From the IMG/VR virus record IMGVR_UViG_3300025529_000003: a stretch of 48,626 nt of DNA. One strand, 5' to 3'. The position numbers and the translations under genes are program-made. The notes under the pieces were generated by a model, which saw nothing but the letters and a program-made list of their open reading frames with translations, made no database searches and was not told where the DNA came from. This DNA comes from a virus. Positions within the stretch are counted from its first letter, which is position 1. Each line of letters starts with the position of its first letter. Below are positions 1 through 48,626 of this stretch, piece by piece.

Positions 1-127
1 ACCTTCAAATAATTCTGGATTTCCACGATCAACTCGGGATCGCGGATCGGCTGGACTTCGCGCATATCACCACCTCGCTTGAAAAATGGCAAAAGAAAAA
101 GCACCCGCAGGTGCTACAAAATTTCAA
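1..127. repeat. Terminal direct repeat copy 1, identical to 48500-48626. Assembly overlap of a circular molecule.
   Basis: Read directly: both copies run accttcaaataattctgg...gtgctacaaaatttcaa. The repeat splits the recombinase ORF; its first 65 nt and RBS recur at 1-76. Confidence 0.95.
91..116 (-). terminator. Intrinsic terminator between the Cys-rich gene and the recombinase gene.
   Basis: Minus strand AGCACC-tgcg-GGTGCT followed by TTTTTCTTTTG. Confidence 0.7.
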
Positions 128-415: not shown

Positions 416-520
416 TCAGCTGTAATTAATTCTTTTCCTCTCCCGCCACTCTTTCCGGTTGCGCGGATCCGGTCCGGCGAGCGACAACCGTCTCACGAAT
501 CGATTTAGCCACTTTTTCAT
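416..520 (-). CDS. Possible 34-aa basic micro-protein (MKKWLNRFVRRL...).
   Basis: Its ATG overlaps the TGA of the upstream micro-ORF (ATGA). Below the ORF-track cutoff. No homology recognised. Confidence 0.2.
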   Translation of the reverse strand: MKKWLNRFVRRLSLAGPDPRNRKEWRERKRINYS

Positions 521-639
521 TTCCTGATTACCCCTGTCCGCTTGTCCCGCCGATGCGGATGCACGCTCCAGATGATACGATGTTTCACGCTAATCCATCC
601 GGCAAAGTTCTTCGGCAATTTCAACGACTTGTCTTTCAC
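517..639 (-). CDS. Possible 40-aa micro-protein with a GTG start.
   Basis: GGGGAGGGG lies 6 nt upstream of the GTG at 639. Translationally coupled to 416..520. Confidence 0.25.
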   Translation of the reverse strand: MKDKSLKLPKNFAGWISVKHRIIWSVHPHRRDKRTGVIRK

Positions 640-815
640 TGTGACCCCTCCCCTGAATATTTGAGGCCGGCACTTCCGGATCGTTTGCGCGGCCGGCGAG
701 CGCCCGGGTCCTGCTCATTCACCGCTCCGGTCGCGGTCGAAAGGAGGGAGCCGCGCCCGTCTCGCTTTGCCCCGCGAGCAGGATTCGGTCATGCGGCAAT
801 TTGGGGATGAGCAGG

Positions 816-847
816 CAAAAAGAAAAGGTCGCCGATGATCGGCAACC
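816..847 (-). terminator. Strong intrinsic terminator ending the non-coding transcription unit.
   Basis: Minus strand GGTTGCCG-atcat-CGGCGACC (8 bp including one G-U) followed by TTTTCTTTTTG. Confidence 0.8.
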
Positions 848-1270
848 CTGAATTCAATTTTGGTGTTGGGATGCGGGCAGGGATTTGCACCCTGCATGCG
901 CTCTACCAGTTCGGGTGATCATACCGCTCAGTTGCGATCTTGGCAGTAGGAGCGCCACCCGCAAGTGTCTACCTATTCCACCACCGCATCCCTATTCAGT
1001 TGACCGTCCATCTGGACGGCGACCGGGCTAACCCCGATCCCTCGTATCGGGCCGGTGGGGACCTACTGCCGCGTCTTGCACGGGTTCAGTCCCGATCAAT
1101 TGGCCCTGGAAGCCCATCTCGCCCGCAGCCCCATGGACTCTACAACCGATGCCGCAACGGCTGATTGATTTCGGAGCGACAGGCGGTGGGTTCGCCCGCC
1201 GTCCCGGGATGCCGCGTCACCGGCCGCCTAGGACAGACAGTTCAGCGGCGCGGCGGGCAAATGCTTCGCT
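848..1270 (-). ncRNA. Candidate large structured non-coding RNA, about 420 nt.
   Basis: No credible ORF or RBS. Bounded by an extended -10 promoter and the terminator. GC-rich helices, e.g. GCCCGCCG (1258-1251) with CGGCGGGC (1201-1194), and CCGTCC-agat-GGACGG (1019-1004). Confidence 0.5.
861..992 (-). ncRNA. Aberrant tRNA-like module at the 3' end of the candidate RNA.
   Basis: 9-bp acceptor-type helix GGGATGCGG (992-984) with CCGCATCCC (876-868). Type-II-like D arm GTGG-AATAGGTAG-ACAC. Arm TGGCG-CTCCTAC-TGCCA (957-941). T arm GCAGGG-TGCAAAT-CCCTGC (895-877). Tail AACACCA. Confidence 0.55.
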
Positions 1271-1290: not shown

Positions 1291-1313
1291 TTTCCCAAAA
1301 AGTCGGCCATAAT

Positions 1314-1342
1314 GCGGACAAAATGCGGACATAGAGCGGACA
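1314..1342 (-). repeat. Three direct TGTCCGC repeats phased 11 bp apart. Candidate activator binding sites.
   Basis: Plus-strand GCGGACA at 1314, 1325 and 1336. They sit immediately downstream of the arpU stop and upstream of the extended -10. Confidence 0.6.
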
Positions 1343-1348
1343 TGATTT

Positions 1349-1795
1349 TCAGTCTTCTTTCAGCACCACCAGTCCCAGGGCTGCCGCCAACCTGTAGATG
1401 GCGATCGACTTGATCCGTCGATAGTGCCGGGTGCTGTACCCGAGAGCTGTAGCCACATCGACATCAAGCACATTGTCTTCGTCCAGGTAGCGCATCCGGA
1501 TCAGCTTTTGCTGCCGGGCACCCAGCCGGCTGACCGCCTTCTCTACGCGCTCGACGTGCTTCCGGCGCCGCTCCTGCTCGTCCACATTCAGGATGGCAAT
1601 TTTCTCTACCTGCGACACGACCGAATTCGTCTGGCCATGGTAGCGCGGTTCGTACAGCGGTGTGACCTTCAGTTCGTGCGGGATGTATTCCGTCACTTTG
1701 TACTCCCGGGCCAGCAGCAGATACCGCTCGACCGCCTCTTTCGTCTTTTCTTCGTCGATCTCGTATATGCCGAAGCAAAGTTGTTGTGCCCCCAT
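1349..1795 (-). CDS. arpU: ArpU-family phage late transcriptional regulator.
   Basis: 148 aa. C-terminal sigma region-4-like HTH (RQQKLIRMRYLDEDN...ATALGYSTRHYRRIKSIA). Located just before the packaging module. Confidence 0.8.
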   Translation of the reverse strand: MGAQQLCFGIYEIDEEKTKEAVERYLLLAREYKVTEYIPHELKVTPLYEPRYHGQTNSVVSQVEKIAILNVDEQERRRKHVERVEKAVSRLGARQQKLIRMRYLDEDNVLDVDVATALGYSTRHYRRIKSIAIYRLAAALGLVVLKED

Positions 1796-3973: not shown

Positions 3974-4783
3974 TCAAAATAGCGTCAGTTGCCGGCCGCA
4001 ATGTTCCGCCGCGACCGGGTTGATCCAGAGGACTTCCTCTGTGGCCTTCCCGCGTTGTGCGAGGGCCTGCCTTGTCTCCCGGTGCCAATGGCGTAGTCGT
4101 TCATCATATAATCGGTTCGCATATCCCGATAACAGCACCGGGCCCGGGTGATCATCGAGCAGATCCAGTAACTCCAGATGCTCATCGTCCGTCATCTCGT
4201 GCCGATAAATCGCTCCGCTTCTGGTTTCGAGAACGTATGGCGGATCTGCGAATATCAAGACGTCCGGCCGCCGATAACGCTTGATCAACTCTGTCGCTTG
4301 CTGCTGTTCTATCTGTACCCCTCGCAGACGTTCGGTGTATGTCATGATTCTGTTCGGAATGTCGCCCCATTGATGCGCAGGTTGAGGGTCCGACACATCC
4401 ATGACACTCCTCCAACCCGTCCGTGCGCACATTTTCGGTCCCTGACCCATCCAGCACCGCACCAGGAACCTCCGCGCTCGCTCGAGCTCGTCCAACTCCC
4501 CCCCCGATTGGTAGGAGATGTAATATTCCTGCCGGCTGTACGGTGTCCAATAGATCAGCCGCGCCAGCTCGTCAGGTCGGTCCCGGATCACCTTAAAAAG
4601 GTTGACCACATCCCCGTCAAGGTCATTGATGGTTTCGAGCGTGGCCGGAGGTTTGTTGAAAAACACCGCGCCGCTGCCGAAAAACGGCTCGAGGTACGTT
4701 TGATGTGGCGGCATGTGCGAGATGATCCAGTCGGCCAGACTCCACTTCGATCCGGGATAGTGCAATATGCGTGGTGCGGTCAT
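3974..4783 (-). CDS. dam: Dam-family DNA N6-adenine methyltransferase.
   Basis: N-terminal YPGSKWSLADWI, FFGSGAV (AdoMet site) and FADPPY catalytic motif. Confidence 0.85.
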   Translation of the reverse strand: MTAPRILHYPGSKWSLADWIISHMPPHQTYLEPFFGSGAVFFNKPPATLETINDLDGDVVNLFKVIRDRPDELARLIYWTPYSRQEYYISYQSGGELDELERARRFLVRCWMGQGPKMCARTGWRSVMDVSDPQPAHQWGDIPNRIMTYTERLRGVQIEQQQATELIKRYRRPDVLIFADPPYVLETRSGAIYRHEMTDDEHLELLDLLDDHPGPVLLSGYANRLYDERLRHWHRETRQALAQRGKATEEVLWINPVAAEHCGRQLTLF

Positions 4784-22994: not shown

Positions 22995-23648
22995 TCAAAG
23001 CTTATTTTTAGGTTTCCACTCCCAAATATTGATTCTTGATGCATATTTGTTTCGAATGTATTCGCCAAACGCATTTTTTCTTGCTCCCGCAGGGGAATAT
23101 TTATTCTTTACAACACCCGTTAACAAATCACATATTTGAACAACATCGCATTTATCCGATGCGGTTGATTTGCAGGACTTAACACTATAATTATGACCTT
23201 CCAGAAAAGCCTTCTCATTTAAATTACGCATTAAGTAACTATAAAAGTTATCTTCTTTTAATCTGTTTTTTTCGTCAGGGCGAATATGTATGTCATCAAC
23301 TCTTTTTTTTATATGGTGATAAATCAATAATTCAGAAAACTTGTTATATGCAAGGTGTTTTTTATATCCAAAGTACTTTAGATCAACGTCTTCCTTCCTA
23401 ATCACAATGGATTTAAAACTAAAATAACACCGAAACGCCTCATCTAATACCTCTTTATATACTCTATCTCGGAAGTTAGAAAAAACTTGAAAATGAATTT
23501 CATCATAGAATTTATTTTTATCCCTAACAGAGCGAACGATATCAAGTAGCTTACGCTTAACAGAGGAAGTCATGCAAAGAATACCAACAATAAAAATGTC
23601 ATCTCCTGGTTCCCCGGACTCATCCTGAAATACCCAATACTTTGACAT
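22995..23648 (-). CDS. DUF3800-family protein.
   Basis: N-terminal VFQDESGEPG...FIVGIL and C-terminal VQICDLLTGVV. GGAGGAG RBS. Strongly AT-rich gene. Confidence 0.65.
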   Translation of the reverse strand: MSKYWVFQDESGEPGDDIFIVGILCMTSSVKRKLLDIVRSVRDKNKFYDEIHFQVFSNFRDRVYKEVLDEAFRCYFSFKSIVIRKEDVDLKYFGYKKHLAYNKFSELLIYHHIKKRVDDIHIRPDEKNRLKEDNFYSYLMRNLNEKAFLEGHNYSVKSCKSTASDKCDVVQICDLLTGVVKNKYSPAGARKNAFGEYIRNKYASRINIWEWKPKNKL

Positions 23649-45523: not shown

Positions 45524-46954
45524 TCACCAACCCGCCGGCCGCTGACCGCTGAACGGCAAACTGCGTTCTTCCACGAACGCCAGCACGACAGCGTCCGCCC
45601 GGTCCGGCGAGTCCAGCCCGCGCTTCTTCATATCTTCCTTGCGCTCCAGCGCGAGTTTGCCTCGGCTCGTCATCCGGTACTTCCGCTGCGACAGCTGCGC
45701 GATCAGCCGGTCGTCGTTCGGCAGTTCGATCGTAGGTTCTTCGCCTCGCATGTGCCGCGAGAAGCTGTCCTGCAGCAGATCCCGGACCGTCGCCCAAGTC
45801 TCGGTGCCGCGGTTCTCGTAATGCTCTTCCTCGTCCGATGTCGGCTTGCCGCTGTTGTTGACCGGAACCACCGTCCAATCATATAGCCGATCCTCGTGGA
45901 TCACCTCGTTGAGTCGGTCCGTTACGCCGCCGCCGACGCCGGTGTCGTCGACCTTGATCACAACCCGGCGGATGTGCGTGTACTGCTGCAGCATCTCCCG
46001 GACCGTCGCGATCACACAGCCGGCCGTCACCATCGTGTCCTGCTTGTGGTATGCGCGCAGGTCGAACACCTTGCCACCAATCCGCGGCGCGATGACGGTC
46101 TCATCGTCGCCGAAGCGCGCCACGTCGACACCGATGTGCAGCGTATCACCCGTCGGCCGGACCGTCGAGTTTGCTGCGTGCTCCACCAACTCGAGCGCGA
46201 TGAAAGCATCCGACTCAGCCTTCGGGAACTCTCCATACACGCGCACGCGCACGACGTCGCTGTCGGTGCCGTACTTGTCGATCAGCATCTGGATGTTCTC
46301 GCGGCTCGTGCGCGCGCTGTCCCGGCTGTCGACCTTATGAGTCTTGAATCGCTTGCGGTCGCGGTTGTGCGAATCATAAAAAACACCCGACGTTCTCGTC
46401 GGGTTTCCGCACATGAGCAGCTTGTTCTCGGGCCCAGAGAGCGTGCCGAGAATCGCTTCCATGATCGGATCAGCCACCCCGGACGCCTCATCGACGATGA
46501 ACAGCATGTAGTCTTCGTGGAAGCCCTGCATGTTCTCCGGTCTCGTCGCCGTCCGTGTCGTCGCAAACCAGCGTTCTTCGTGGCCGATCATGTAGACCTT
46601 CGTCTTCGTCCACTTCAGCAACCGCCGGATTTTCGCCTTCTCCAGCCACTTTGCAACTTCGGCCCAGAGCACATCCTGCAACTGCTGTTGAGTCGGCGCC
46701 GTGCAGATAACCTTCGGATTCGGTCGGCAACACAAGAACCAGATGACGGCCCATGACTCGAGCGCCGTCTTGCCGACTCCCTGACCGGACCGCACGCTCA
46801 CCCAACGATGCCCAGCGAGATCACGGAGAACGGCCCGCTGCCAATCGTCAGGTTCCGCGTCGAGCATATCCTGCACGAATGCGACTGGGTCATCCCAATA
46901 CACATCGAGCAGATTGACAAGCGTAGATTGGACGGTTTGACTACTCATCGTCAT
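45524..46954 (-). CDS. terL: Terminase large subunit.
   Basis: Walker A RSGQGVGKT. LFIVDEASG Walker B. C-terminal nuclease region. Confidence 0.9.
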   Translation of the reverse strand: MTMSSQTVQSTLVNLLDVYWDDPVAFVQDMLDAEPDDWQRAVLRDLAGHRWVSVRSGQGVGKTALESWAVIWFLCCRPNPKVICTAPTQQQLQDVLWAEVAKWLEKAKIRRLLKWTKTKVYMIGHEERWFATTRTATRPENMQGFHEDYMLFIVDEASGVADPIMEAILGTLSGPENKLLMCGNPTRTSGVFYDSHNRDRKRFKTHKVDSRDSARTSRENIQMLIDKYGTDSDVVRVRVYGEFPKAESDAFIALELVEHAANSTVRPTGDTLHIGVDVARFGDDETVIAPRIGGKVFDLRAYHKQDTMVTAGCVIATVREMLQQYTHIRRVVIKVDDTGVGGGVTDRLNEVIHEDRLYDWTVVPVNNSGKPTSDEEEHYENRGTETWATVRDLLQDSFSRHMRGEEPTIELPNDDRLIAQLSQRKYRMTSRGKLALERKEDMKKRGLDSPDRADAVVLAFVEERSLPFSGQRPAGW

Positions 46955-47756
46955 TCACCTGCTGCGCCCTCCGCCGCTCGGCGGCCTGTTTCAGCGCCGC
47001 TACCCAGTCTTCGGCGTCGGCGTTCTTGCCGCCGCCTTTGGCGCTTTCTACTTCGGCCTTGACCTTTTCGATCTGGGCCTCCATCAGCGCCAGTTTCATG
47101 CGGCGCTCGTCGTTCTCGGGCGCTGCGGCAAGAAACTGCTTGATCGAAGAGTTGAGCGCCGATATCGCGGCCGCCTGCGCCTTGAGATAAGTCGCGTAAC
47201 GGTCCCAGGCGAACTGGAATTCAAATTCTTCCTCAGTCACCACAGGTATGATCTCTTTGTCCTTCCCTCGACCTCTGGTGACGACATCGAACTTCCGCTT
47301 CTTCAGCTCTTTGATCATTTCGTCGCGATCTTTCACAAACATAATCTTCTGCGCGCGGATGATCGCGGCGAACTGCGTGGTGATGTTGTGCCAGAGCATG
47401 TCGAGCGGATCGGCCTCGGCCGCCAGATCATAGATTTCGAGGAACTCTTCGTCCTGCGGCATGTATTTGCGGTACAGCCCGTGCTTGACGGCGCGGTCGT
47501 TGCCCGGCGGAGCGCCCGGGCCGCCTTTGTTGCCCTTCGCGTTCTTGTTTCCTCTCGGTGCGCCGCGGCGAGGATCTTCGCGCTCCTCCCACTTGTAGTA
47601 GTGCTTCCATTTCCTCACCATTTCCGGCGAGATCCCGAGCTTCTCAGCGATCCACTTCGTCGAGCGCGGCCGGCCGGATTCACACCAAAGCTTGAAGGCT
47701 TTTTTTTCGATTGGACTGCGTTTCGGCGCCACTACATCCACCCCACCTCCGCACAA
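46941..47756 (-). CDS. terS: Terminase small subunit. The true start may be the GTG at 47732.
   Basis: N-terminal HTH (STKWIAEKLGISPEMVRKW). GAPRGNKNAKGNKGGPGAPPGN repeats. Overlaps terL. Confidence 0.8.
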   Translation of the reverse strand: MCGGGVDVVAPKRSPIEKKAFKLWCESGRPRSTKWIAEKLGISPEMVRKWKHYYKWEEREDPRRGAPRGNKNAKGNKGGPGAPPGNDRAVKHGLYRKYMPQDEEFLEIYDLAAEADPLDMLWHNITTQFAAIIRAQKIMFVKDRDEMIKELKKRKFDVVTRGRGKDKEIIPVVTEEEFEFQFAWDRYATYLKAQAAAISALNSSIKQFLAAAPENDERRMKLALMEAQIEKVKAEVESAKGGGKNADAEDWVAALKQAAERRRAQQVNDDE

Positions 47757-47955: not shown

Positions 47956-48564
47956 TCACCCGGTTTTTGTAAAACTCAACCTCAGAATCATGCGGTCAAG
48001 CATGTCCTGAGTGAGCCCCAAATACCGCAAAGTGACCTCCTGCGACTCGTGTCCGAACGCTTCCATGAGTAACGCCATGACGTAGCCCCACTGCTCCTTC
48101 GGGGCGTTCATAATCATATGATAGCCCCATGTCTTTCGCAGCGAGTGCGTGCCGATGTCCTCGAGGCCAAACCGCTGCGCGACGTCCGAAATCATGCGCC
48201 AGGCCATCTGCCTACTGATCGGCAGCCCTTTCTCGCCGGTCGCCTTCTTTTGCCGCGACGCGAATAAATATTCATCGTCATCCATGTCCTGAATGTAAAT
48301 CATCAGGTCGTCATAGTACGACGGATGGATGATGAATCTTTTTTCCTTCCGGCGCTTCCGGCGGTTCCTGGTCTTCTTTGCGACATAGTTGATATGCAAC
48401 TGGTCCCGGACATCGCCTACCTTGAGGCTCAACAGGTCCGACACGCGCAACCCGCAGTGGATGCCCATCGTGAACAGCAAGTAATTGCGGAAATTTCGAA
48501 CCTTCAAATAATTCTGGATTTCCACGATCAACTCGGGATCGCGGATCGGCTGGACTTCGCGCAT
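47956..48564 (-). CDS. Minimal tyrosine recombinase, 202 aa, essentially the catalytic domain only.
   Basis: GAGGTGGTG RBS before MREVQP. GLRVSDLLSL (R), HSLRKTWG (HxxR), FGHESQEVTLRYLG (H...Y). AT-richer than its neighbours. Confidence 0.8.
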   Translation of the reverse strand: MREVQPIRDPELIVEIQNYLKVRNFRNYLLFTMGIHCGLRVSDLLSLKVGDVRDQLHINYVAKKTRNRRKRRKEKRFIIHPSYYDDLMIYIQDMDDDEYLFASRQKKATGEKGLPISRQMAWRMISDVAQRFGLEDIGTHSLRKTWGYHMIMNAPKEQWGYVMALLMEAFGHESQEVTLRYLGLTQDMLDRMILRLSFTKTG

Positions 48565-48626
48565 ATCACCACCTCGCTTGAAAAATGGCAAAAGAAAAAG
48601 CACCCGCAGGTGCTACAAAATTTCAA
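48500..48626. repeat. Terminal direct repeat copy 2, identical to 1-127.
   Basis: Exact 127-nt identity with the window start. Confidence 0.95.

What the first reader, a model, noticed from the sequence alone, without database searches (positions are those of the whole stretch)
848..1270. Self-contained ~420-nt GC-rich non-coding transcription unit between ArpU and the packaging genes: candidate large structured phage RNA
Positions 391-1348 contain no credible protein gene. The only long ORFs (553..810, 715..897, 940..1164) are Pro/Arg-rich, lack an RBS and look like GC-driven shadows.

On the minus strand an extended -10 (TGcTACTAT, 1285-1277) is followed about 420 nt later by a strong intrinsic terminator (816-847). 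The interval is packed with GC helices that can be read by eye:
- GCCCGCCG (1258-1251) with CGGCGGGC (1201-1194)
- CCGTCC-agat-GGACGG (1019-1004)
- a tRNA-like module at the 3' end

Known very large ornate RNAs of Bacillota prophages (the GOLLD and ROOL classes) are typically phage-borne and lie next to or embed tRNAs. This locus could be a member of those classes or a new class. I cannot assign it from the sequence alone.
Basis: partly seen in the sequence, partly recalled or inferred. Interest (0 to 1): 0.8.

Follow-up and report, generated by a model that had tools for sequence, protein, structure and literature searches.

The report
Phage late-leader RNA with tRNA mimic
The stretch is the non-coding start of this phage's late-gene transcript, and it carries a tRNA-shaped RNA without an anticodon from a widespread family that I found neither annotated nor in Rfam 15; it is not a GOLLD- or ROOL-type giant RNA.

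Summary
Window 816-1270 (minus strand) is a real non-coding transcription unit. It starts at the ArpU-dependent late promoter: four 7-nt boxes, then 20 nt, then TGcTACTAT. It ends at a strong intrinsic terminator that relatives also have. It is not one large ornate RNA. Rfam 15 and ARAGORN find nothing. The 5' 278 nt fold no better than shuffles (z = -1.4). Phages with a 97% identical ArpU lack the whole ~400-nt insert yet keep the promoter and terminator.

The RNA is a mosaic of exchangeable modules. One module, 868-992(-), is strongly supported. It is a tRNA-Leu-derived mimic with a 7-9 bp acceptor stem, a tRNA-Leu D arm and a 6-bp T arm with loop UGCAAAU. A variable pseudoknot domain replaces the anticodon and variable arms, and no CCA is encoded. 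More than 120 IMG/VR contigs carry it, as do Listeria, Enterococcus (including phiFL2A) and Paenibacillus phages, always unannotated. Covariation is strong: 98.5% of cells pair, with 311 double-change cells against 77 in shuffles.

Best reading: an expressed cargo RNA in the late-leader slot, processed like a tRNA and acting in trans as a tRNA mimic. Its function is untested.

The parts
1303..1342 (-). Four direct 7-nt boxes with a period of 11 nt: TGTCCGC at 1342-1336, 1331-1325 and 1320-1314, and a degenerate TGGCCGA at 1309-1303. They start 6 nt after the arpU stop codon and are the presumed ArpU binding sites.
   Evidence: Read from the sequence. The same arrangement occurs in 15 ArpU relatives and in phiFL2A. 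In phiFL2A three such repeats were shown to be required for ArpU-dependent activation of the terS promoter (PMC3753634).
1277..1285 (-). Extended -10 element TGcTACTAT of the late promoter. The inferred transcription start is near 1270.
   Evidence: The last box is followed by 20 nt and then TAnnAT in the window, L176, L184 and L186-L189, and by 21 nt in phiFL2A and L190. phiFL2A has GTGCTAATAT where the window has GTGCTACTAT. The start site is inferred, not measured.
816..1270 (-). The inferred ~455-nt non-coding leader RNA of the late operon, from the start site to the end of the terminator U tract.
   Evidence: Bounded by the promoter and terminator above. No protein-family hits. No Rfam hit. 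MFE -200.6 kcal/mol with z = -2.8. The RNA itself has not been observed.
1041..1261 (-). Variable 5' domain of three predicted GC-rich hairpin domains, roughly 1261-1191, 1190-1113 and 1112-1040.
   Evidence: The structure is an MFE prediction only, and z = -1.41 is not significant. The first ~115 nt are shared with L178/L180 and the last ~85 nt with L156/L195. The domain is absent from L176/L177/L179. No divergent homologues were found, so covariation could not be tested.
1021..1040 (-). Sequence-invariant hairpin GGAUCGGGGUUAGCCCGGUC. The stem is GAUCGGG/CCCGGUC with a conserved U.G pair, and the loop is GWUAG.
   Evidence: Exact match apart from the W position in 21 IMG/VR contigs and in five Bacillota genome records: Cohnella, Fictibacillus, a Paenibacillaceae MAG (L165, where it sits inside a direct repeat and is doubtful), Pullulanibacillus and Tepidibacillus. 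It occurs with and without a tRNA-like module downstream. No Rfam match. The stem never varies, so covariation says nothing for or against it.
1004..1019 (-). Hairpin CCGUCC-AGAU-GGACGG.
   Evidence: Read from the sequence. Conserved in L006, L120, L156 and L191-L196, with one loop change (CTGA) in L149. Absent from L139 and L143.
868..992 (-). tRNA-Leu-derived tRNA mimic.
- Acceptor stem: 992-984 pairs with 876-868 (9 bp).
- U8 G9: 983-982.
- D arm: 981-965.
- Variable pseudoknot domain: 964-898.
- T arm: 895-877, a 6-bp stem with loop UGCAAAU.
- No CCA is encoded.
   Evidence: CM R1 scores it at 84 bits, E = 4.6e-21, as the only significant hit in the window; the next is 13.5 bits, E = 0.64. 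Its helix alpha, GCGCUC/GAGCGC, covaries in 6 sequence types. ARAGORN and the Rfam tRNA model do not call it.
816..849 (-). Intrinsic terminator: stem 849-825, then U tract 824-816.
   Evidence: Found by the pattern scan. The same hairpin follows the late promoter in ArpU relatives that lack the insert (L176, L177, L179, L181), and an analogous hairpin is present in all 15 relatives.

Best explanation
**What it is (shown or strongly supported).** Window 1270-816(-) is the untranslated leader of the late (packaging, morphogenesis and lysis) operon. It sits between the ArpU-dependent late promoter and a leader terminator that relatives conserve.

The ~400 nt between promoter and terminator are an insert made of exchangeable RNA modules. 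The functional core is a tRNA-Leu-derived mimic at 992-868. It keeps the following:
- a covarying acceptor stem of at least 7 bp;
- the tRNA-Leu D arm (A14, A15, G18, G19, A20a);
- a T arm, so presumably the L-shaped elbow.

A pseudoknotted variable domain replaces the anticodon and variable arms.

**How it most likely works (inferred).**
1. ArpU turns on the late promoter.
2. A large share of transcripts stop at the leader terminator. This gives an abundant discrete RNA of about 455 nt.
3. Host tRNA-maturation enzymes recognise the acceptor-T-arm stack and the elbow. RNase P cuts at about 993/992, and RNase Z or exonucleases trim the A-U-A-A trailer.
4. This releases a stable tRNA-like RNA of about 125 nt.
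5. That RNA acts in trans as a tRNA mimic, decoy or scaffold on a factor that reads tRNA shape rather than the anticodon.

The late-leader position serves as an expression slot for such cargo RNAs.
For: **Promoter**
- The ArpU identity is confirmed.
- The boxes and the -10 element have the same geometry in 15 relatives and in phiFL2A.
- Experiments showed the repeats to be the ArpU site in phiFL2A (PMC3753634).

**Terminator**
-.

**The insert is dispensable cargo**
- L176/L177/L179 (97% ArpU identity) go from promoter to terminator in about 50 nt.
- L178/L180 (99%) carry a different, shorter insert.
- Relatives hold DUF3800-VII and DUF3800-VIII RNAs in the slot. phiFL2A holds a minimal mimic plus a genuine tRNA-Arg.

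**The tRNA mimic is a selected RNA structure**
- I extracted 104 non-redundant copies. The acceptor stem pairs 7/7 in 88 of them and 6/7 in 13, with hypervariable sequence.
- On 85 sequences, 98.5% of cells pair, against 75.7 +/- 0.7 in shuffles.
- There are 311 double-change cells against 77 +/- 9 in shuffles. Slid controls pair in 50% of cells or fewer.
- G.U pairs and the conserved U.G are consistent with the minus strand.

**tRNA-Leu origin**
- The D arm differs by 1 nt from a phage tRNA-Leu(CAA).
- Among the genuine tRNAs in the loci searched, the CM cross-hit only two tRNA-Leu(CAA) genes.

**tRNA-type processing is plausible**
- A genuine tRNA lies within 1 kb in 32 of 119 loci, and all 32 are on the same strand as the mimic.
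- The stem is never shorter than 7 bp.
- The 3' trailer consensus is A-U-A-A.
- A 7-bp acceptor stem is a major RNase P determinant, and the tRNA-like YrlA of M. smegmatis is cut by M1 RNA (PMC4201824).

**A stable RNA from this position is known**
- The Listeria sRNA rliG maps to the same position in A118-type phages. In phage 188 its 5' part abuts the mimic directly.
Against: - No transcript, processing or binding data exist for this RNA or for any family member.
- The T loop has G at position 55 and the T stem has 6 bp. The acceptor helix is often 8-10 bp. No CCA is encoded. Any of these could hinder RNase P, RNase Z or the CCA-adding enzyme.
- About one third of family members sit 15-35 nt before a start codon with no terminator between. 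That fits a cis role as well.
- The invariant hairpin and the 5' domain are left without a role.
- No target is known. No antisense complementarity to the phage genome exceeds chance; the longest match is 13 nt.
Confidence: 0.55

Rival explanations
1. A cis-acting leader. The structured RNA, especially the invariant hairpin near the 5' end of minimal leaders, modifies RNA polymerase or refolds so that transcription reads through the leader terminator into the late genes. The analogues would be HK022 put, EAR or nut-type antitermination, or an attenuator.
For: - It lies between the late promoter and a terminator that every ArpU relative has. Some read-through mechanism must therefore exist.
- A second terminator-like site follows at 115-100(-).
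- The invariant hairpin sits just after promoter-like -10 elements in the minimal leaders L144, L171 and L170.
Against: - The closest relatives keep the same promoter, terminator and downstream genes without the insert. The insert therefore cannot be required for read-through.
- The mimic also occurs in tRNA clusters and in front of unrelated genes.
- I saw no alternative pairing between the insert and the terminator.
Confidence: 0.15
2. A processing or stability signal for mRNA ('tRNA punctuation'). RNase P or RNase Z cleavage at the mimic defines mRNA ends, or the folded mimic protects downstream mRNA from 5' exonuclease. There is no trans function.
For: - About 29 family members lie 15-35 nt upstream of an SD and start codon of diverse genes.
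- They are co-oriented with tRNAs.
- Precedents from my own knowledge: mitochondrial tRNA punctuation, MALAT1/mascRNA, and 5' stabiliser structures in Bacillus.
Against: - In the window and its subfamily a strong terminator separates the mimic from the next gene.
- The conserved elbow, and the variable domain that is nonetheless structured, exceed what a cleavage signal needs.
Confidence: 0.15
3. A single large ornate RNA of about 420 nt, acting as one unit. It would be a GOLLD- or ROOL-like RNA or a new giant class.
For: - It is long, GC-rich, non-coding, phage-borne and associated with a tRNA-like element.
- z = -2.8 for the whole RNA.
Against: - No Rfam hit to GOLLD, ROOL or any other family, even at E <= 10.
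- The 5' 278 nt give z = -1.41.
- Conservation is modular, and the whole unit is absent from the nearest relatives.
Confidence: 0.04
4. A decaying tRNA-Leu pseudogene or a selfish repeat with no function for the phage. Alternatively, a DNA-level site such as pac/cos or a recombination site.
For: - It derives from tRNA-Leu.
- It is patchy among close relatives.
- Its conserved flanks around a variable middle could favour cassette exchange by recombination.
Against: - Compensatory changes occur in all 7 acceptor pairs and in two pairs each of the D and T stems, across 85 sequences. That requires selection on a folded single strand.
- The loop sequences are near-invariant across phages of Listeria, Enterococcus and Paenibacillus.
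- G.U pairs argue against a duplex-DNA site.
Confidence: 0.06

Closest known systems
Bacterial Y RNA YrlA (a tRNA-mimicking ncRNA bound by Ro60/Rsr)
   Same: It is a non-coding RNA, also found in phages, that mimics the D arm, T arm and acceptor stem and has no anticodon. The M. smegmatis form is cut by RNase P and receives CCA (PMC4201824).
   Different: - The topology is permuted. In YrlA the 'acceptor' is a closed stem-loop and the RNA ends lie in the Ro-binding helix. Here the ends are at the acceptor and the variable domain is closed.
- YrlA has a canonical T loop; here the loop is UGCAAAU.
- No Rfam YrlA hit.
- No TROVE family appeared among the Pfam families listed for the window's ORFs, though that list was truncated.
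Minimal tRNA-Leu constructs that lack the anticodon and variable arms (E. coli LeuRS substrates)
   Same: The retained parts are the same: acceptor, D arm with A14, A15, G18, G19 and A20a, and T arm. E. coli LeuRS charges such truncated RNAs provided that A73 and the D-T loop contacts are intact (PMC9976931). In the family, A is the first unpaired 3' base in 50% of copies.
   Different: - Those are laboratory constructs, whereas this is natural.
- Here position 55 is G, and the G18:U55 contact matters for leucylation.
- The T stem has 6 bp.
- No CCA is encoded.
- Charging has not been tested.
MALAT1/mascRNA and gammaherpesvirus MHV68 tRNA-like-miRNA transcripts (from my own knowledge)
   Same: A tRNA-like module sits within or at the 3' end of a longer non-coding transcript. 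RNase P or RNase Z uses it to release separate stable RNAs.
   Different: Those are eukaryotic or eukaryotic-virus systems with no sequence relationship. Processing here is only inferred.
DUF3800-associated RNA motifs (Rfam DUF3800-I to -XI; Weinberg et al. 2017)
   Same: - They are structured phage or prophage RNAs of unknown function, often followed by intrinsic terminators (PMC5737381).
- DUF3800-VII and -VIII occupy the same leader, next to the mimic, in relatives.
- The window encodes a DUF3800 protein at 23648..22998 (25.4 bits against a cut-off of 21).
   Different: - The window RNA matches none of these models.
- The DUF3800 gene is ~22 kb away.
- No DUF3800 gene appeared among the families listed for the short relatives' loci I scanned.
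Listeria sRNA rliG (Rfam RF02415)
   Same: It has the same genomic position: just after the ArpU/LlgA-type late activator gene, upstream of terS, and ending in a terminator. It is a detected transcript of unknown function (PMC7397523). In Listeria phage 188 the rliG 5' part is followed directly by the mimic.
   Different: It has no sequence or structure similarity to the window RNA, and Rfam rliG does not hit the window. A118's rliG has no tRNA-like module.
Lambda PR'-tR' 6S RNA arrangement (from my own knowledge)
   Same: A late promoter is followed by a short non-coding transcript that ends at an intrinsic terminator ahead of the late genes.
   Different: In lambda the arrangement serves Q antitermination and the RNA has no tRNA-like module. 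Whether ArpU-type systems antiterminate is unknown.

Membership tests
tRNA (Rfam RF00005; ARAGORN) | A cloverleaf with an anticodon stem-loop that tRNA gene finders detect | tested here: not met
   - ARAGORN finds no gene in the window and never calls the element in 119 loci.
- No RF00005 hit at E <= 10, even on a 186-nt query.
- The region between the D and T arms ranges from 0 to 200 nt and shows no evident anticodon stem-loop in the inserts I inspected.
tRNA (Rfam RF00005; ARAGORN) | A 7-bp acceptor stem, D arm and T arm with the conserved elbow nucleotides | tested here: met
   - The acceptor stem pairs 7/7 in 88 of 104 copies and covaries.
- The D arm is GCGG-AAUAGGUAG-ACGC, 1 nt from a phage tRNA-Leu.
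- The T loop keeps U54, C56 and A58.
- It deviates in having G55 and a sixth T-stem pair.
tRNA (Rfam RF00005; ARAGORN) | A 3' CCA end and aminoacylation | not testable with these tools
   CCA is not encoded: only 3 of 88 trailers start with CCA. Addition of CCA after transcription and charging need experiments.
tmRNA | A tRNA-like domain combined with a tag reading frame and pseudoknots, as detected by ARAGORN or Rfam | tested here: not met
   No hit with ARAGORN in tmRNA mode or with Rfam. The element has a D stem, which tmRNA lacks. I did not look specifically for a resume codon or tag frame in the 67-nt insert.
GOLLD / ROOL large RNAs | A match to the family covariance model, meaning the conserved multi-stem core | tested here: not met
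   No match at gathering score or at E <= 10.
GOLLD / ROOL large RNAs | Conservation of the whole RNA of about 500 nt or more as one unit | tested here: not met
   Conservation is module by module, and the whole insert is absent from the nearest relatives.
YrlA / bacterial Y RNA | [quoted passage not shown] | tested here: not met
   - No Rfam hit.
- The topology is the reverse.
- No TROVE family among the Pfam families listed for the window's ORFs. The list was cut at 25 of 43 families, so this last point is weak.
DUF3800-associated RNA motifs | A match to one of the Rfam DUF3800-I to -XI models | tested here: not met
   The window has none. Relatives have DUF3800-VII (63-68 bits) and DUF3800-VIII (51.6 bits) in the same leader.
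DUF3800-associated RNA motifs | Location near a gene for a DUF3800-domain protein | tested here: inconclusive
   A DUF3800 ORF exists in the window at 22998-23648(-), at 25.4 bits against a cut-off of 21. It lies ~22 kb from the RNA. None appeared among the families listed for 13 short related loci.
Ltr/ArpU-dependent late promoter leader | Direct 7-nt repeats immediately distal to the activator gene, followed by the late promoter upstream of terS | tested here: met
   - The ORF belongs to TIGR01637.
- Four boxes with an 11-nt period start 6 nt after its stop codon, and the box-to--10 spacing is conserved.
- The experimental basis is in PMC3753634.
- ArpU binding here has not been tested.

The most novel reading that the evidence does not exclude
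The family is a natural anticodon-less 'tRNA-Leu chassis'. It keeps most of what RNase P, the CCA-adding enzyme and LeuRS read: the acceptor stem, a discriminator that is often A, A14, A15, G18, G19, A20a, and the T-loop contacts. It differs from that set in having G55 and a 6-bp T stem.

After processing it would act in one of three ways:
- it is leucylated, or it sequesters LeuRS or another reader of tRNA shape;
- it acts as a decoy for tRNA-targeting immune nucleases;
- it serves as a natural tRNA scaffold that displays a rapidly changing pseudoknot payload.

Phages would express it from a dedicated cargo slot between the late promoter and a leader terminator.
Probability: 0.2. Interest if true: 0.85.

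Novelty: new variant of a known kind. Interest (0 to 1): 0.62.

Why it matters
If the tRNA mimic is what it appears to be, a widespread RNA gene has been overlooked in well-studied temperate phages. These include Listeria phages B054, P70, PSA and B025, Enterococcus phiFL2A and phiFL3A, and EFDG1-like phages.

It lies in the same arpU-terS gap of phiFL2A whose promoter-proximal repeats were used to define ArpU- and RinA-type late activation.

It would add a bacterial-virus example to the short list of tRNA mimics: tmRNA, YrlA, mascRNA and plant-virus TLS. It can be tested directly in genetic systems that already exist.

The comparison also shows that the late-operon leader of Bacillota siphophages is a swap-in slot for structured RNAs. 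The RNAs found there are rliG, rli62, DUF3800-VII and -VIII, genuine tRNAs and this mimic. This gives a common genomic context to several orphan Rfam motifs.

Finally, every ArpU-type late promoter I examined is followed by an intrinsic terminator. That raises the open question of how late transcription gets past it.

Tried and rejected
- **Rfam 15.** I searched the whole window at gathering score. I also searched 300-1500 and 860-1045 at E <= 10. Only noise came back: Ms_IGR-2, suhB, ctRNA, sul1 and ryfA, all far below their thresholds.
- **ARAGORN.** It found no tRNA or tmRNA.
- **blastn of 391-1348 against 50,697 phage records.** The only hit was the tRNA-like part in Paenibacillus phage Pd_22F.
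- **Protein coding.** ORFs 943-1164(+), 718-897(-) and 556-810(+) have no Pfam or PHROG hit.
- **Thermodynamic support for the 5' domain.** It is not significant.
- **Divergent homologues of the 5' domain.** Pattern scans and the ArpU-based locus search found only near-identical copies or partial module sharing, so covariation could not be tested there.
- **Antisense targets in the phage genome.** The longest complementary match is 13 nt, which is chance level.
- **Pseudoknot helices UUGCG/CGCAA and CGGGUG/CACCCG in the window-type insert.**
  - In eight sequence types I saw only wobble-compatible one-sided changes, plus one U-U mismatch in L193 for the first helix. That is suggestive, not proof.
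  - The two helices overlap, so they cannot both form in full.
- **Short-range link to DUF3800 genes in relatives.** I did not find one; metallophosphatase/dGTP-diphosphohydrolase genes recur there instead.
- **Literature.** Eight full-text searches found no description of this element. I tried the sequence strings, tRNA-like plus phage terms, ArpU/RinA, rliG and DUF3800. The library is incomplete, so prior description elsewhere cannot be excluded.
- **Pattern false positives.**
  - 18 of 22 hits of the first pattern were unrelated coding DNA.
  - Hits to the hairpin pattern with C or G at the N position, in Proteobacteria and Actinomycetota, look like chance matches.
Full report
**1. The observation**

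On the minus strand, the ORF 1795..1349 belongs to the ArpU family. It scores 81.4 bits against TIGR01637 (cut-off 43.1) and matches PHROG 248, 'transcriptional activator'.

Six nt after its stop codon come four direct 7-nt boxes with an exact 11-nt period. TGTCCGC lies at 1342-1336, 1331-1325 and 1320-1314, and a degenerate TGGCCGA lies at 1309-1303.

The terminator is real: stem 849-825 with 11 pairs, then a U tract to 816.

The three long ORFs in or around 848-1270 match no Pfam or PHROG family.

The window is a circular assembly, since its first 127 nt equal its last 127 nt. On the minus strand the order is:
1. arpU
2. this RNA
3. small ORFs
4. a tyrosine recombinase (48603..47956)
5. a terS-like gene (47756..46944, PF10668)
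6. a terL-like gene (46954..45527)

'Between ArpU and the packaging genes' is therefore correct.

Two points do not hold.
- The stretch 416-639(-) carries two overlapping small ORFs, the first with a good SD. Both are conserved in relatives.
- The GC helices of the 5' 278 nt are no more stable than shuffled sequence: z = -1.41, with 20 of 200 shuffles folding as well. The whole unit gives z = -2.8 on the minus strand and -1.4 on the plus strand.

**2. It is not a known RNA family**

- Rfam 15 gives nothing at gathering score over the whole window. At E <= 10 it gives only noise, both for 300-1500 and for 860-1045.
- ARAGORN finds no tRNA or tmRNA.
- GOLLD, ROOL, tmRNA, YrlA, RNase P and intron assignments are therefore not supported.

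**3. The promoter is the phage late promoter**

Quiles-Puchalt et al. showed that ArpU, RinA and LtrC activators bind three 7-nt direct repeats placed immediately after their own gene. They also showed that, for ArpU of Enterococcus phage phiFL2A, these repeats are required to switch on the late (terS) promoter (PMC3753634).

phiFL2A has 3 x TTGGCGG, then 21 nt, then GTGCTAATAT. The window has 4 x TGTCCGC-type boxes, then 20 nt, then GTGCTACTAT.

I fetched 15 loci that encode ArpU relatives at 41-99% identity. All show the same layout: boxes, then 20-21 nt, then TAnnAT, then a leader, then an intrinsic terminator, then genes. The unit is therefore the leader of the late operon. This rests on comparative geometry and on published experiments in phiFL2A. 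Binding and the start site have not been measured here.

**4. The ~400 nt are an insert made of modules**

- Phages with 97% identical ArpU (L176, L177, L179), and also L181, run from the -10 element to the same terminator hairpin in about 50 nt. They then continue into homologous downstream sequence.
- L184 and L186-L190 have equally short leaders, each ending in its own analogous terminator hairpin.
- L178/L180 (99% identity) share only the first ~115 nt of the window's 5' domain, then carry a different ~90 nt.
- L156 and L195 share only the last ~85 nt of the 5' domain, the two hairpins and a tRNA-like module with a different middle.
- In L156, L194 and L195 the same leader contains DUF3800-VII RNA (63-68 bits). 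In L195 it also contains DUF3800-VIII (51.6 bits), ending 5 nt before the tRNA-like module (also L139).
- In phiFL2A the 794-nt arpU-terS gap holds a minimal tRNA-like element, a genuine tRNA-Arg and a terminator just before terS.
- In Listeria phage A118 the same position is the known sRNA rliG (274 bits). In Listeria phage 188 the rliG 5' part is followed directly by the tRNA-like element. rliG is a detected transcript of unknown function (PMC7397523).

I conclude that the late-leader position is a slot where structured RNAs are swapped in and out. The window's RNA is one such mosaic, not a single ornate RNA.

**5. The tRNA-like module is real and belongs to a large family**

*How the family was found.* blastn of the region against phage records hit only an unannotated intergenic stretch of Paenibacillus phage Pd_22F. 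Identity was 85%, with compensatory changes in three stems.

*Architecture.* Almost all hits share the following layout:
- a variable 5' strand;
- UG;
- GCGGAAUAGGUAGACGC, a tRNA-Leu D arm;
- 0-200 nt of variable sequence (median 70);
- AUG-CNNGG-UGCAAAU-CCNNG-C;
- a 3' strand complementary to the 5' strand;
- no CCA.

*Acceptor pairing.* Among 104 non-redundant copies the acceptor pairs at 7/7 positions in 88 and at 6/7 in 13. Pairs 1-6 use all four Watson-Crick types.

*Covariation.* I tested a gapless 85-sequence alignment.

| Measure | Observed | Shuffled | Other controls |
|---|---|---|---|
| Cells paired | 98.5% | 75.7 +/- 0.7% | slid partners pair in 50% or fewer |
| Double-change cells | 311 | 77 +/- 9 | 0 of 500 shuffles reach the observed value |

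All 7 acceptor pairs covary, as do 2 D-stem pairs and 2 T-stem pairs. One caveat applies: the sequences were chosen by a T-arm pattern that fixes four T-stem pairs. The acceptor pairing played no part in the selection.

*Stem length.* The helix is never shorter than 7 bp. It is 8-10 bp more often than chance extension predicts.

*Covariance model.* A model built from 74 sequences scores window 868-992(-) at 84 bits (E = 4.6e-21), the only significant hit in the window. It finds variants with other T loops in further loci, among them a Cohnella lubricantis genome and phiFL2A. It recovers 96 of 100 pattern loci. Among the genuine tRNAs in the loci searched it cross-hits only two tRNA-Leu(CAA) genes.

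*Origin.* The family's D arm differs by one base from that of a phage tRNA-Leu(CAA). The element is therefore a tRNA-Leu derivative that has lost the anticodon and variable arms.

*The variable middle is structured.* In 64% of copies a helix of at least 6 bp has its 3' strand directly abutting AUG, against 15% in shuffles. It is usually preceded by a 9-15 nt linker. In the window-type middle I found eight sequence types, some through the metagenome scan. Helix alpha covaries among them:
- GCGCUC/GAGCGC
- GCUCUC/GAGAGC
- GCUCCUU/AAGGAGC
- GACGUCCC/GGGCGUC
- GAUGCCC/GGGCGUC
- GCUCCUC/GGGGAGC

CGGGUG/CACCCG changes only to CACUCG, which keeps a G.U pair. This fits an H-type pseudoknot without proving it.

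*Distribution.* The element occurs in Listeria phages (188, LP-101, B054, P70-like, B025, PSA), Enterococcus phages (phiFL2A, phiFL3A, EFDG1-like, phiSHEF16) and Paenibacillus phage Pd_22F. It is annotated as an RNA in none of them; in a few records a protein-coding annotation overlaps it.

**6. How it probably works**

*Shown.*
- The module is under selection as a folded single strand on the minus strand.
- It preserves the tRNA parts that shape-reading enzymes use.
- A genuine tRNA lies within 1 kb in 32 of 119 loci, and all 32 are on the same strand as the element.
- Its 3' trailer has the consensus A-U-A-A.

*Established elsewhere.*
- A 7-bp acceptor stem stacked on a T arm is the main RNase P determinant. 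The tRNA-like YrlA of M. smegmatis is cut by M1 RNA and receives CCA (PMC4201824).
- E. coli LeuRS ignores the anticodon and the long variable arm. It charges truncated tRNA-Leu that lacks both, provided A73, A15-U48, G18G19, A20a and the D-T loop contacts are present (PMC9976931).

*Inferred.*
- ArpU fires the late promoter and many transcripts stop at the leader terminator.
- RNase P and a 3' nuclease release a mimic of about 125 nt.
- The mimic acts in trans on a factor that reads tRNA shape.

*What the trans target might be.* I cannot tell. The candidates are:
- LeuRS, or CCA or modification enzymes;
- tRNA-directed defence nucleases. As an example, Cas12a3 has collateral activity on tRNA, and its loci often carry TPR-DUF3800 genes (PMC13594972);
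- a role as a scaffold that presents the variable pseudoknot.

*Features that argue for caution.* G55, the 6-bp T stem, the often longer acceptor helix and the lack of CCA.

*The cis rivals.* Antitermination and mRNA punctuation both remain possible. The first is weakened because close relatives lack the insert. The second is weakened because a terminator sits between the mimic and the next gene in this subfamily. About a third of family members, however, sit 15-35 nt before a start codon.

**7. The other modules**

- The hairpin GGAUCGGGGWUAGCCCGGUC (1040-1021) is sequence-invariant in 21 viral contigs and in five Bacillota genome records, one of them doubtful.
  - It keeps a conserved U.G pair.
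  - It occurs both alone, after promoter-like elements and before a terminator, and fused to the mimic.
  - Its stem never varies, so its structure is unproven and its role is unknown.
- The 5' domain has no support beyond an MFE prediction.

**8. Novelty and verdict**

- The unit is real, non-coding and transcriptionally well defined.
- The 'large ornate RNA' reading fails.
- The tRNA-like module is a member of a widespread family that appears undescribed. It has no match in Rfam 15, carries no RNA annotation in GenBank phage records and did not turn up in eight literature searches.
- The literature library is incomplete, so I rate it a new variant of a known kind (tRNA mimics) rather than categorically new.
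- Interest is moderate to high because the family sits in model phages, in the very intergenic region used to define late-gene activation, and is directly testable.

Noticed in passing
window 640-815 (-): A second conserved non-coding element lies just after the leader terminator.
- Its core is a hairpin CCGYGACC-NN-AGCGG preceded by CUCCCUCCUUU.
- A flanking helix CCUGCUCAU/AUGAGCAGG changes only to G.U-compatible variants in L178 and L184.
- CUCCCUCC is complementary to the SD AGGGGAGGGG of the small ORF that follows, so it may be cis-regulatory.
- RNAalifold on 7 relatives finds 16 of 31 pairs with compensatory changes, but the window sequence alone gives z = 0.11.
- No Rfam hit.
   Followed up: partly
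window 517-639 (-) and 416-520 (-): Two overlapping small ORFs of 40 and 34 aa share an ATGA stop/start overlap, and the first has a strong SD. Homologues with conserved sequence (NFAGWIS..HRIIWSV..RRDKRTGV) follow the leader in L176, L178, L181, L184 and L189. They match no Pfam, NCBIfam or PHROG family.
   Followed up: partly
window 1-127 and 48500-48626: The first 127 nt are identical to the last 127 nt, which is the overlap artefact of a circular assembly. The window is a complete circular phage genome of about 48.5 kb. The metagenome contig L198 spans the junction.
   Followed up: yes
window 816-849 (-) and 100-115 (-); L173, L176-L190: Every ArpU-type late promoter I examined is followed by an intrinsic terminator before the late genes, often within 30-60 nt of the -10 element. 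That covers 15 relatives plus phiFL2A. The window has a further terminator-like site at 115-100(-). This implies regulated or constitutive read-through, possibly antitermination linked to ArpU. I found no description of it in the papers I read.
   Followed up: partly
window 1021-1040 (-); L144, L148/L164, L170, L171: The invariant hairpin also occurs as a stand-alone module. In L144 and L171 the order is a promoter-like -10 element, the hairpin, a second hairpin or terminator, then genes. In Fictibacillus (L148/L164) and Pullulanibacillus (L170) it stands alone, with no clear promoter seen upstream. In these loci no tRNA-like module follows.
   Followed up: partly
window 22998-23648 (-): This ORF of 217 aa matches DUF3800 (PF12686) at 25.4 bits against a cut-off of 21. 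DUF3800 is a predicted RNase H-fold domain. It is linked in the literature to 11 orphan RNA motifs and to loci of tRNA-cleaving Cas12a3. No known DUF3800 RNA motif lies in the window. Relatives carry DUF3800-VII and -VIII RNAs beside the tRNA mimic.
   Followed up: partly
window 47956-48603 (-): A 215-aa tyrosine recombinase (Phage_integrase, E = 5e-19; PHROG 216) lies inside the late operon, just upstream of the terS-like gene. L187 has a similar gene in the same place. This is a different gene from the window's second Phage_integrase match, which is reported.
   Followed up: no
L139, L195, L149, L147, L158 and related loci: In the subfamily with DUF3800-VII RNA, the first gene after the mimic and terminator is repeatedly a calcineurin-like phosphoesterase with a dATP/dGTP diphosphohydrolase N-terminal domain. 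Eight and seven of the 61 scanned ORFs match these two families.
   Followed up: no
L199 1-190; L063; L096; L035: Some contigs carry two copies of the tRNA mimic. In L199 the 3' end of one copy lies about 50 nt before the next. Weaker second copies occur in L063, L096 and L035. Several variable domains contain a canonical T-arm-like hairpin GGUUCGAAUCC (L029, L041, L059, L068, L092, L096, L113, L128).
   Followed up: no
L094 (IMG/VR contig): By my reading of its N-terminal sequence, the gene 33 nt downstream of one mimic is an RtcB-type RNA ligase (397 aa). This recalls the rsr-yrlA-rtcB neighbourhood of bacterial Y RNAs. I did not run it against a family library.
   Followed up: no
window 3977-4783 (-) and the RNA at 816-940: The phage encodes a D12-class (Dam-type) adenine methyltransferase. 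The conserved parts of the mimic's middle and the terminator loop contain GATC three times: AAGAUCGCAAC, AUGAUCACCC and CCGAUCAUCGG. This may be coincidence.
   Followed up: no
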